Positions 22,544 through 25,071 of a DNA stretch of 30,214 bases are shown piece by piece; the stretch's first letter is position 1, and every line of letters begins with the position of its first letter. The position numbers were made by a program, and so were the translations under genes. The notes under the pieces were generated by a model. The model ran no database searches. It worked only from the letters and a program-made list of their open reading frames with translations, and was not told the origin of the DNA. Origin of the DNA: a virus (taxonomy: Duplodnaviria; Caudoviricetes); the IMG/VR virus record IMGVR_UViG_3300016484_000158, positions 1-30,214 of that record. One strand, 5' to 3'.

Positions 22544-22574
22544 TTGCGTGTCCTAAATGTTTAGCATATATTTG
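22544..22574 (+). promoter_or_regulatory. Major early promoter (Bacteroidota sigma70)
   Basis: TTG-N20-TATATTTG with upstream A/T tracts, at the strand switch. Confidence 0.75.
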
Positions 22575-22609
22575 TCAAACAATTAACAACAACACCAAAG
22601 ATAAACAAA

Positions 22610-22798
22610 ATGAAAACAACAATCGAACAACAAAAAGAAATCCTTACAAACGTTGCAATTCAACTTTTACAAAAAGGTCAAGATTTTGAAATCGTTAACG
22701 ACTATTTGAAGCAATATGTAATCAATAGCCAATTCGATAGAGACATTAACGTAGATGCAATACGTTATTTAGCAAAGTGTCAATTAGGATTAATCTAA
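22610..22798 (+). CDS. Early hypothetical protein
   Basis: First ORF after the promoter, with an A-rich leader. Confidence 0.7.
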   Translation: MKTTIEQQKEILTNVAIQLLQKGQDFEIVNDYLKQYVINSQFDRDINVDAIRYLAKCQLGLI

Positions 22799-22810
22799 AA
22801 TAGTATACCA

Positions 22811-22860
22811 GGGATGCGACTGACCAACGCATATTTAACTAAAATCAAATATAAACAAAA
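22811..22860 (+). repeat. Hairpin-plus-leader element, copy 1
   Basis: GGG ATGCG-ACTGACCAA-CGCAT ATTTAACTAAAATCAAATATAAACAAAA. Confidence 0.8.
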
Positions 22861-22870
22861 CAAAACAACG

Positions 22871-23176
22871 ATGAAAACAAGAGAATTGATTAAAGCTGGA
22901 ATGGTTAACAATGGAACAAAAGTAATTGTTAACAAAGGTGCGGAATATGAATGCGGAAAGCATAGTGACCATAGAACTGTGGGTTATGTAACTGAACCAT
23001 TTACTGCAACTTGCATAAGTTCACCTAAAATTTATTTAAATTCTAACGGAATCCAAGATTTTGAATATGCTCATTTAACTTGCGTTGATGATAGCGGTGT
23101 GGAATATAGTATAAATGTTGGTCAGTGCAAATACTCGCGCGTTGATAGTCAAGATGACGTTACAATTTTAATTTAA
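22871..23176 (+). CDS. Early hypothetical protein (cassette between the two repeats)
   Basis: The start MKTRELIK at 22871 follows the A-rich leader. Confidence 0.7.
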   Translation: MKTRELIKAGMVNNGTKVIVNKGAEYECGKHSDHRTVGYVTEPFTATCISSPKIYLNSNGIQDFEYAHLTCVDDSGVEYSINVGQCKYSRVDSQDDVTILI

Positions 23177-23184
23177 TTAAACGA

Positions 23185-23229
23185 GGGGCGCGACTCACCA
23201 ACGCGCATTAACTAAAATCAAATAAACAA
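23185..23229 (+). repeat. Hairpin-plus-leader element, copy 2
   Basis: GGG GCGCG-ACTCACCAA-CGCGC ATTAACTAAAATCAAATAAACAA, with compensatory stem changes versus copy 1. Confidence 0.8.
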
Positions 23230-23343
23230 ATGAAAAAAACACTACTCTTTATCGCGATGTTATTCGCAGGAATGTTAATCGCAGGAACGATTGACGAACA
23301 AACAAGACAATTAGAACAACAACCAAATCACACAACAAAATGA
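23230..23343 (+). CDS. 37-aa signal/TM peptide (missed by ORF track)
   Basis: MKKTLLFIAMLFAGMLIAGTIDEQTRQLEQQPNHTTK. Confidence 0.7.
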   Translation: MKKTLLFIAMLFAGMLIAGTIDEQTRQLEQQPNHTTK

Positions 23344-23510
23344 AAGTAGAACTAATTCAAAAGACGACGTTGACAGATATGTACTACGTTATCAAAGTCA
23401 ATGGTGAGTTTCATATGTCGTACAATGATTTGCAAGATGCAAAGAACGCATACGACCGCATACGTTCAGCAACACCACGCGAAGAAGTAATCGAATCAAA
23501 AGAAATCTAA
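23340..23510 (+). CDS. 56-aa hypothetical protein (missed by ORF track)
   Basis: MKVELIQKTTLTDMYYVIKVNGEFHMSYNDLQDAKNAYDRIRSATPREEVIESKEI; ATGA-coupled. Confidence 0.7.
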   Translation: MKVELIQKTTLTDMYYVIKVNGEFHMSYNDLQDAKNAYDRIRSATPREEVIESKEI

Positions 23511-24193: not shown

Positions 24194-24993
24194 TGGGTTA
24201 CTACAAGCGCCTATCAGAACAGGAACAAATGAGCGAGAGCAACTGGCGACATATCGAAGCCGACCAAGAACTCGCAGTTAAGTTCGAACAATATCTAAAT
24301 TCATTTAATAATAACAACATAATAAACAACAACACAATGAGCATTATTGCACAACCCTCAAACAACAACGGAGCAGGACAAACAGTCCCTGCAGGAACAC
24401 ACGTAGCGCGTTGCTACCAAATCATTCACATTGGAACAATCGTTGACACCTATCAAGGCGAAGAAAAGCTTGTAAACAAAGTTCGCATCGTGTTCGAACT
24501 ACCACTTGAAACAGCCGACTTCGGTAAAGGTGAACAGCCTTTCTCAATCGGTCGCGACTTCACTTTATCAATGCACGAAAAGAGCGGTTTACGCGCCTTC
24601 GTTCAAGGGTGGTTAGGTAAGGCTATGTCAGACGGAGAAGCTAACAAGTTCGATATCGCAACGCTTTTAGGAAAGGAATGTATGCTTAACGTAATGCACC
24701 GCACAGCGAACACAGGTCGCACCTACGCAGACATCAAAGGCGCTTCGCCACTTGTTAAGGGAATGTCTTGCCCACCGTTAGTTAACAGCGCTTTCTTACT
24801 TGACTACGACAGCGAAGACTTCGACTTACGTTTTAAGATGCTTCCAGAGTGGTTGCAAAACAAGGTGAGTTCATCGGCTGAATTTAGCAAACGTTTGGAG
24901 CGCTCTGCGGAGCAATTCAATAACGCTAAACAGATGCTCGAAAAAAGCGGTTTGGTTCAGTCAACAGACGACACAGACGAATTACCTTTCTAA
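24193..24993 (+). CDS. Phage ssDNA-binding/replication protein (likely internal start at 24337)
   Basis: VPAGTHVARCY..I.IGT, SMHEKS.LR...W.G and LLGKECMLNV motifs, plus an acidic DDTDELPF tail. Confidence 0.7.
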   Translation: MGYYKRLSEQEQMSESNWRHIEADQELAVKFEQYLNSFNNNNIINNNTMSIIAQPSNNNGAGQTVPAGTHVARCYQIIHIGTIVDTYQGEEKLVNKVRIVFELPLETADFGKGEQPFSIGRDFTLSMHEKSGLRAFVQGWLGKAMSDGEANKFDIATLLGKECMLNVMHRTANTGRTYADIKGASPLVKGMSCPPLVNSAFLLDYDSEDFDLRFKMLPEWLQNKVSSSAEFSKRLERSAEQFNNAKQMLEKSGLVQSTDDTDELPF

Positions 24994-25007
24994 ATAATAA
25001 CGTGTTT

Positions 25008-25043
25008 TATAAGGGACGAAAAGTCAGTATTTAGTCCCTTATA
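25008..25043. other. 10-bp stem-loop after the SSB-like gene
   Basis: TATAAGGGAC-N16-GTCCCTTATA. Confidence 0.6.
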
Positions 25044-25071
25044 TTACACTTAACGACTTAAATCTAAAACA

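What the first reader, a model, noticed from the sequence alone, without database searches (positions are those of the whole stretch)
22811..23409. Two covarying hairpins whose loops each match a site 200-300 nt downstream
Seen: copy 1 is ATGCG[ACTGACCAA]CGCAT (22814-22832) and copy 2 is GCGCG[ACTCACCAA]CGCGC (23188-23206). The stem changes are compensatory and both copies follow AGGG. Loop 1 (22819-22828) is the exact complement of GTTGGTCAGT (23117-23126) inside the next gene. Loop 2 (23193-23200) is the exact complement of TGGTGAGT (23402-23409). The single G/C loop difference is mirrored in the targets, and also in the immediately upstream CAG/GAG, so a local pseudoknot is an alternative pairing. 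Inference: an RNA device, not matching any class I recognise, in which a guide loop pairs long-range with coding sequence. Possible roles include translational coupling, antitermination, processing or nuclease protection.
Basis: partly seen in the sequence, partly recalled or inferred. Interest (0 to 1): 0.8.

Follow-up and report, generated by a model that had tools for sequence, protein, structure and literature searches.

The report
Tiny RNA knot behind phage genes
The two hairpins are copies of a roughly 25-base element, predicted to fold into an RNA pseudoknot, that many unrelated phages place a few bases behind a gene's stop codon and that likely caps and protects the upstream message, while the proposed pairing with distant coding sequence is not conserved in relatives.

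Summary
The base before AG pairs with the variable loop base in 182 of 185 viral copies (90 expected), in all four Watson-Crick forms. Downstream loop complements of 8 nt or more occur in 3 of 122 copies (upstream control 2); target 2 survives in 2 of 81 ortholog rows and target 1 in 0 of 5 loci. The knot occurs in about 1,200 viral stretches and in cultured phages (Rosebush, Fishburne, BFK20, phi92). It stays at least 8 nt behind a stop, travels with the upstream gene (181 of 204), and follows the first gene after a promoter motif (81 of 115 AT-rich copies). It also abuts convergent genes, terminators and tRNAs. Best reading (0.5, inferred): a protein-free 3' cap that stabilises the first cistron. 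No Rfam match. Eight earlier notes of this scan describe a similar knot on other DNA; I could not check identity. Function is untested.

The parts
22567..22574 (+). TATATTTG, a Bacteroidota-type -7 promoter motif (TAnnTTTG consensus recalled) ahead of the rightward early operon
   Evidence: sequence; the same motif lies 27-60 nt before the upstream gene in 80 of the 81 relatives that carry it
22610..22798 (+). g1, 62-aa ORF of unknown function, first gene after the promoter motif
   Evidence: no PHROG or Pfam hit; all 4 homologs carry the knot behind the stop
22809..22832 (+). Pseudoknot copy 1: S1 CAG 22809-22811 with CTG 22820-22822; L1 GG 22812-22813; S2 ATGCG 22814-22818 with CGCAT 22828-22832; L2 A 22819; L3 ACCAA 22823-22827; S1 starts 10 nt after the g1 stop
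   Evidence: sequence; covariation; fold predicted, not probed
22835..22870 (+). A-rich linker and leader of g2; its first 16 nt recur behind copy 2
22871..23176 (+). g2, 101-aa ORF of unknown function; a swappable cassette, placed directly behind the promoter region in 4 of 5 homologous loci
   Evidence: relatives L544 and L561 go g1-knot-g3 without it
   Evidence: differs in all 5 homologous loci, none of which has a knot before g2
23183..23206 (+). Pseudoknot copy 2: S1 GAG 23183-23185 with CTC 23194-23196; L1 GG 23186-23187; S2 GCGCG 23188-23192 with CGCGC 23202-23206; L2 A 23193; L3 ACCAA 23197-23201; S1 starts 6 nt after the g2 stop
   Evidence: sequence; covariation; all 5 g2 homologs carry a knot behind the stop
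23230..23343 (+). g3, conserved 37-aa hydrophobic ORF; most homologs have no knot in front
   Evidence: 9 occurrences with, 54 without
   Evidence: kept in 2 of 81 ortholog rows; silent positions vary

Best explanation
Each copy is predicted to fold into a compact H-type RNA pseudoknot (S1 of 3-5 bp, loop GG, S2 of 5 bp with an invariant GCG/CGC core, loop ending in AA) that likely acts as a protein-free barrier at the 3' end of the upstream message. Shown by comparison: the two interlocked stems, the sense strand as the folding strand, the position just outside the stop codon, and linkage to the upstream gene. Inferred: the long early transcript is cut downstream (in the A/U-rich linker, or by RNase P at a tRNA) or ends further on, 3'-to-5' exonucleases trim back and stall at the knot, and the first cistron, which alone keeps the native 5' triphosphate, survives as a stable short mRNA. 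The spacing of at least 4-6 nt between stop and S1 would keep the knot clear of the terminating ribosome. This phage has two copies because a second gene-plus-knot cassette (g2) sits behind the first. The knot may also resist attack from the 5' side, and so act as a two-way boundary.
For: S1 covariation at a position left free in the search: 182 of 185 Watson-Crick (C-G 121, G-C 39, A-U 17, U-A 5) against 90 expected; next pair 125 against 54. G-U wobbles outnumber A-C mismatches in the outer S2 pair, 7 to 0. With loops left free, GG was found in 101 of 104 and AA in 98 of 104; with S2 left free, the GCG core was found in 106 of 108. Stop-to-GG distance has minimum 8 and mode 9, and 149 of 213 lie at 9-14 nt, while the distance to the next ATG is broad. 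Homologs of upstream genes carry it in 181 of 204 occurrences. It follows the first gene behind TAnnTTTG in 81 of 115 AT-rich copies, against 5 of 73 controls. Some contexts leave nothing downstream to serve: directly against the stop of a convergent ORF in L016, L035, L057 and L077 (one gene family), before an intrinsic terminator in L012 and L421, and 3-5 nt before a tRNA in phage Pumpernickel and L106. There is no frame bias and no consistent U tract.
Against: No transcript ends were seen: the RNA runs were contigs only, so the function rests on genomic context alone. In phi92 the knot follows a tRNA and precedes a gene, and in L106 it lies between two tRNAs, where no message lies upstream to protect. 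186 of 220 viral copies have genes on both sides, which fits most rivals too. The end-of-unit cases are few (7 of 220) and partly related. Linkage to the upstream gene could be hitchhiking at recombination points. The element is optional: 9 of 57 long g4 loci carry it.
Confidence: 0.5

Rival explanations
1. The knot is a leaky, non-canonical transcription terminator or pause that gives the first gene more mRNA than the genes behind it.
For: Position after the first gene; end-of-unit cases with no other terminator found (L016 group); mild T enrichment at +2 to +6 after S2 (104-135 of 271, falling to about 50 by +10).
Against: An A follows S2 in 261 of 271 copies and 37 of 271 have no T in the next 9 nt; S2 is only 5 bp; copies lie directly before tRNAs and before real terminators.
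Confidence: 0.15
2. The knot protects or promotes downstream RNA: a block to 5'-to-3' decay (RNase J, or RNase E scanning), a Rho roadblock, or a put/nut-like antiterminator placed after the first early gene.
For: Structural obstacles, pseudoknots among them, hinder RNase E scanning (PMC9943677: abstract and section headings seen). The promoter-gene-element layout resembles lambda cro-nutR (recalled). phi92 context: tRNA, knot, gene.
Against: It travels with the upstream rather than the downstream gene (89 of 104 against 104 of 201 occurrences; the latter over-samples g3). It abuts convergent genes and terminators. Most relatives express the same downstream genes without it.
Confidence: 0.14
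3. The knot acts on the terminating ribosome (pausing, release or reinitiation), or is a docking site for a universal translation component.
For: Sharp minimum of 4-6 nt between stop and S1, also after counting one per gene family; strong sequence conservation across host phyla; tobamovirus 3' pseudoknots also follow a stop codon and PK3 contacts the ribosome (10.1101/2025.10.12.681957, passages).
Against: No frame bias (41/42/50 of 133) and no excess of open fusions; a long tail of larger distances; copies next to tRNAs with no stop nearby.
Confidence: 0.11
4. The knot binds a protein or ligand, for instance as a decoy for a host defence RNase (like type III antitoxin pseudoknots, recalled) or as a small sensor.
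For: Many invariant bases; early position; 119 of 125 upstream gene families have no Pfam hit, as is common for counter-defence genes (inference).
Against: No shared neighbouring protein (125 upstream families among 186 proteins); no tandem array or expression platform; base triples alone could explain the invariance.
Confidence: 0.06
5. One reading: the loop is a guide that pairs with coding sequence 200-300 nt downstream.
For: Both complements are exact and unique in the window; shuffle probabilities are 3.5e-4 and 3.3e-3. In the swap control 8 of 200 permutations reached 3 matches of 8 nt or more, and none reached the observed mean match length.
Against: Upstream and same-sense controls show the same raised mean (5.25 and 5.39 against 5.30), which points to base composition; 0 of 58 same-loop copies have a complement. 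Targets are not kept in orthologs, and none of the 19 candidate rows in orthologous loci exceeds 7 nt. The same loop bases are used by the covarying S1.
Confidence: 0.03

Closest known systems
Intercistronic 3'-stabilising stem-loops of bacterial mRNA (REP elements, malEFG type; recalled, no paper read for this)
   Same: Intergenic, close behind a stop codon, optional, associated with the upstream cistron; the same inferred job.
   Different: Those are nested hairpins; this is a 24-30 nt two-stem pseudoknot with a weak 5-bp hairpin and invariant loop bases, found mainly in phages of several host phyla.
Tobamovirus upstream pseudoknot domain (UPD) pseudoknots
   Same: Small H-type knots behind a stop codon, sometimes in tandem; in some viruses PK2 follows the stop directly (10.1101/2025.10.12.681957, passages; PMC4683447, passages). 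Tandem knots also occur here. A likeness of stem sizes and core is recalled, not tested by sequence.
   Different: Seven Rfam UPD models scored one by one did not hit either copy, nor did the whole-library scans. No tRNA-like structure follows; the hosts are bacteria.
Viral exoribonuclease-resistant RNAs (class 3 xrRNA; coremin)
   Same: Compact, sequence-constrained RNA folds in 3' UTRs and intergenic regions that block a nuclease without protein.
   Different: Class 3 has stacked P1/P2 helices and about 54 nt (PMC11702639, passages); coremin has a YGAD-loop hairpin, a spacer and a second hairpin (PMC10520033, passages). Neither architecture is present, and context here favours the 3' side.
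Lambda nut and HK022 put antitermination RNAs (recalled)
   Same: RNA element after the first gene of an early transcript.
   Different: No boxA/boxB or twin stem-loops; no shared partner protein; found at ends of transcription units; absent from most close relatives.
Frameshift and readthrough pseudoknots (BWYV, MuLV type; recalled)
   Same: Compact H-type knot 5-9 nt behind a decoding site.
   Different: No frame bias and no excess of open fusions; S1 is short and S2 long, the reverse of the luteovirus type.

Membership tests
Any Rfam 15 family | score at or above the gathering threshold | tested here: not met
   0 hits in the window; only unrelated matches with E > 0.6 in 1.1 kb and 51-nt scans
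H-type pseudoknot (fold class) | two interlocked stems in the order S1-L1-S2-L2-S1'-L3-S2', with covariation in both | tested here: met
   S1 free-position test 182 of 185; 3 of 4 S1 pairs and 2 of 5 S2 pairs change on both sides in alignment A1 (that set was selected for pairing)
H-type pseudoknot (fold class) | the fold forms in RNA | not testable with these tools
   needs SHAPE/DMS or a structure
   3 of 122 downstream, 2 upstream, 0 of 58 same-loop copies; targets lost in orthologs
Tobamovirus/furovirus UPD pseudoknots | match to UPD covariance models | tested here: not met
   a model for TMV PK2 was not identified by accession (one search failed); whole-library scans negative
Tobamovirus/furovirus UPD pseudoknots | lies upstream of a 3'-terminal tRNA-like structure in an RNA virus | tested here: not met
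   the window is a tailed phage (portal, terminase) and coding genes follow both copies
Class 3 xrRNA | stem-loop of stacked P1 and P2 with a pseudoknot from the apical loop to the 3' end | tested here: not met
   single 3-5 bp S1 and no second helix, compared with PMC11702639 passages
Class 3 xrRNA | blocks Xrn1 or RNase J1 | not testable with these tools
   biochemical assay needed
Coremin (xrRNA-C) | hairpin with YGAD or YGNNAD loop, spacer, second hairpin | tested here: not met
   consensus, compared with PMC10520033 passages
Intrinsic terminator | GC hairpin followed directly by a U tract | tested here: not met
   neither copy is called; A follows S2 in 261 of 271; no T in 37 of 271
Recoding pseudoknot | slippery site or leaky stop with a downstream ORF in a fixed frame | tested here: not met
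   offsets 41/42/50 and open fusions 18/15/13 of 133; slippery heptamer in 19 of 186, without control
3'-stabilising intercistronic element | lies just 3' of a stop and is linked to the upstream cistron | tested here: met
3'-stabilising intercistronic element | stable RNA 3' ends accumulate at it and upstream mRNA is stabilised | tested here: inconclusive
   only assembled contigs were available, which cannot show ends

The most novel reading that the evidence does not exclude
A universal, self-contained ~25-nt RNA knot, shared by phages of Bacteroidota, Actinomycetota, Proteobacteria and other phyla and by some chromosomes, is the first natural bacterial pseudoknot cap that stops processive ribonucleases mechanically. 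It is the prokaryotic counterpart of viral xrRNAs and lets a phage turn its first early gene into a long-lived message.
Probability: 0.3. Interest if true: 0.85.

Novelty: new variant of a known kind. Interest (0 to 1): 0.66.

Why it matters
A minimal RNA fold conserved across phages of distant hosts must act through its own shape or on a universal machine. If it is a 3' cap, it adds a class of bacterial mRNA-end element that terminator and hairpin predictors miss. It would also explain how phages raise the output of their first early gene, mark those unannotated genes as priority counter-defence candidates, and offer a very small portable stabiliser for engineered RNA. Its presence in cultured phages of E. 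coli, M. smegmatis and C. glutamicum makes the question directly testable.

Tried and rejected
Long-range loop-target pairing: rejected on homologs, though unlikely by chance within this one genome. A third helix GG/CC: rejected, because the CC in L3 varies freely while GG does not. Readthrough or frameshift: no frame bias. An ORF starting at the ATG inside stem 1 (22814): g2 homologs align from the 22871 start and have no knot in front. Rfam: no match; seven UPD models negative. No ribozyme was found in 20 selected loci, only tRNAs. RNA runs X1, X2, X8 and X3 were contigs of related strains and show neither ends nor strand. The Synechococcus phage BLAST hits that were listed are 17-nt matches inside genes and were not counted. 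Genome-collection hits include chance matches: only 50 of 70 pair at the free position. Literature: nine full-text searches gave no description of this motif. Minerva preprint passages and Weinberg 2017 main-text passages do not describe it. Seven supplementary files of Fremin 2023 had no match, but its files 1-2 and the Weinberg 2017 supplement could not be read, so the motif may be listed there. The passage search of PMC3997798 gave no REP support, so the REP comparison is recalled.

Full report
Observation. Copy 1 (22814-22832) and copy 2 (23188-23206) are 5-bp hairpins with 9-nt loops. Both follow AGGG, and both are followed by the same A-rich tail. The two distant complements exist, and each occurs once in the window. 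The hairpins alone fold no better than shuffles. The window is a 30,214-nt tailed phage record, 97% complete, with portal, tape-measure and terminase genes. A TATATTTG motif at 22567, of the Bacteroidota promoter type (consensus recalled), heads a rightward operon of small unknown genes. Copy 1 lies between g1 (stop 22798) and g2 (start 22871), and copy 2 between g2 (stop 23176) and g3.

What it is. Pattern scans found a large family: 110 viral stretches with the window's loop, and about 1,200 with a freer loop, estimated from 7 of 64 parts. Among 185 distinct viral copies, the base before AG, which the pattern left free, is Watson-Crick complementary to the base after CT in 182 (C-G 121, G-C 39, A-U 17, U-A 5), against 90 expected. 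The next pair is complementary in 125 against 54 expected, and the third is at chance. With loops left free, GG was found in 101 of 104 copies and AA in 98. With S2 left free, the GCG core was found in 106 of 108, and 33 of the 34 fully paired metagenome hits, out of 71, were GCGCG/CGCGC. AG/CU can change to GG/CC, and a subtype has L2 = CA. The pair counts on alignment A1 agree, but that set was chosen for pairing, so one search is the fair test. Invariant loop bases suggest base triples (inference).

The long-range idea. In 122 copies with full flanks, a loop complement of 8 nt or more lies within 400 nt downstream in 3, upstream in 2, and as a same-sense match in 1. None of 58 copies with the window's own two loops has one. 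Two results run against my reading. The mean match length exceeded all 200 swap permutations, although the upstream and same-sense controls were raised equally. The two matches in this genome are also individually rare (3.5e-4 and 3.3e-3). Orthologs decide the matter. Target 2 is kept in 2 of 81 g4 rows, with silent sites varying. One of those two loci has no knot and the other has a non-matching loop. Target 1 differs in all 5 g2 homologs, none of which has a knot in front of g2. I judge the matches a coincidence, picked out after the fact.

Where it sits. The distance from the upstream stop to GG is never under 8 nt, has mode 9, and is 9-14 nt in 149 of 213 copies, while the distance to the next ATG is broad. 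Upstream proteins fall into 125 families among 186 and downstream ones into 87 among 168; 119 of the 125 upstream families have no Pfam hit. The knot travels with the upstream gene: 181 of 204 homolog occurrences carry it (loci were fetched through the element, so this is an upper estimate). All 5 g2 and all 4 g1 homologs have it behind the stop, before different genes, and L544 and L561 show g1-knot-g3 without g2. It can be gained or lost cleanly at one junction (L491 against L081), and only 9 of 57 long g4 loci have one. In AT-rich phages, 81 of 115 copies follow the first gene behind TAnnTTTG (control 5 of 73; GC-rich 3 of 26).

Reach. Copies checked in sequence lie in cultured phages LilMcDreamy, Rosebush and Fishburne (Mycobacterium), PSonyx and BFK20 (Corynebacterium), Pumpernickel (Microbacterium) and phi92 (E. 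coli), and in a Microviridae record after VP1. All lie in unannotated intergenic gaps. The genome scan gave 71 loci, of which 50 of 70 scored copies pair at the free position, so some are chance. Covarying ones occur in records labelled Flavobacterium, Microcystis, Streptomyces, Blastocatellia and others.

How it likely works. Most copies (186 of 220) have genes on both sides and do not discriminate between models. The rare ones do. Four abut the stop of a convergent ORF (one gene family), two precede an intrinsic terminator, and two end 3-5 nt before a tRNA. There is nothing downstream to translate or protect there, and RNase P cleavage would leave the knot at a new 3' end (established tRNA processing; applied here by inference). 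I therefore commit to a 3' barrier (0.5). After a downstream cut or termination, exonucleases would stall at the knot, and the first cistron, which retains the 5' triphosphate that disfavours RNase E entry (PMC3997798, passage), would persist. The minimum spacing would keep S1 outside the terminating ribosome. Against this, phi92 and L106 have a tRNA rather than a message upstream, and no RNA ends could be seen. Rivals are a U-less terminator (0.15), downstream protection or antitermination (0.14), action on the ribosome (0.11), a protein or ligand binder (0.06) and the long-range guide (0.03).

Comparison with what is known. No Rfam family matches. It works, by inference, like intercistronic stabilising hairpins (recalled), and it resembles in placement the tobamovirus 3' pseudoknots (passages), but seven UPD models did not hit it. 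Class 3 xrRNA and coremin architectures are not met (passages). Terminator and recoding features are not met. Nine literature searches found no description; two large catalogues could be read only in part, so absence from print is not established. Eight earlier notes of this scan describe a 27-28 nt knot behind stop codons on other DNA. They give no sequence, and sequence look-ups were blank, so identity is probable but unchecked. They prompted my tRNA and end-of-unit tests and moved the 3'-cap reading to first place; they are not counted as support.

Verdict. The feature is real and widespread, and it is not in the catalogues I could search. The structure is strongly supported by covariation and the function is inferred. 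Class: new variant of a known kind; interest 0.66.

Noticed in passing
L468, L016, L029, L035, L057, L058, L077 (5' leaders of the first early gene; e.g. L029:419-445): A second, different small pseudoknot (5-bp S1 AAGTG/CACTT, loop AG, 3-bp S2 NCA/TGN with N covarying, loop ending AAAC) lies between the promoter motif and the start codon. In L016, L035, L057 and L077 one gene is flanked by this knot at the 5' side and the reported knot at the 3' side. The pattern did not hit the window.
   Followed up: partly
L467, L469, L473, L320, L458, L515, L445, L457 (0-2 nt before the element); L337, L434, L241, L450 (about 27 nt before): A further pseudoknot of 9-10 bp (GGCC..GGGTGG/GGCC..CCACCC type) sits between the stop and the reported knot, giving tandem knots in GC-richer phages; shuffles gave such a knot in 0-3 of 20.
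   Followed up: partly
window 24991-25060: A 31-bp-arm inverted repeat behind the 266-aa gene, without a clear U tract; related contigs carry a different hairpin (AGAGGGTTGAAATATACCCTCT type) at this place.
   Followed up: no
window 22580-23230 and L518-L597: The stretch between the early promoter and g3 is a variable cassette slot: dozens of different small genes occupy it in relatives, joined at A-rich linkers.
   Followed up: partly
L472, L493, L018, L046, L306 (downstream of the element): tRNA-like or tmRNA-like stretches, judged by eye, follow the knot; ARAGORN did not call them, and Rfam did not in the three scanned (L018, L046, L306).
   Followed up: no
L609 (phage PSonyx, record 61000-63700): At least three longer-loop variants (L2 = CA, L3 ending in CA) lie in early-gene gaps beside four standard copies.
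   Followed up: partly
L608 (phage LilMcDreamy, record 64650-69510): A separate repeat of about 80 nt (GGAGGCTATAGAC ... GAGGCGGGAACGACCCGCC) occurs three times in front of early genes.
   Followed up: no
L396:2979-3058 (Microcystis chromosome): The knot lies between a 950-aa nucleotidase-like ORF and a PEP-CTERM-like ORF (labels by eye), outside any obvious prophage.
   Followed up: no
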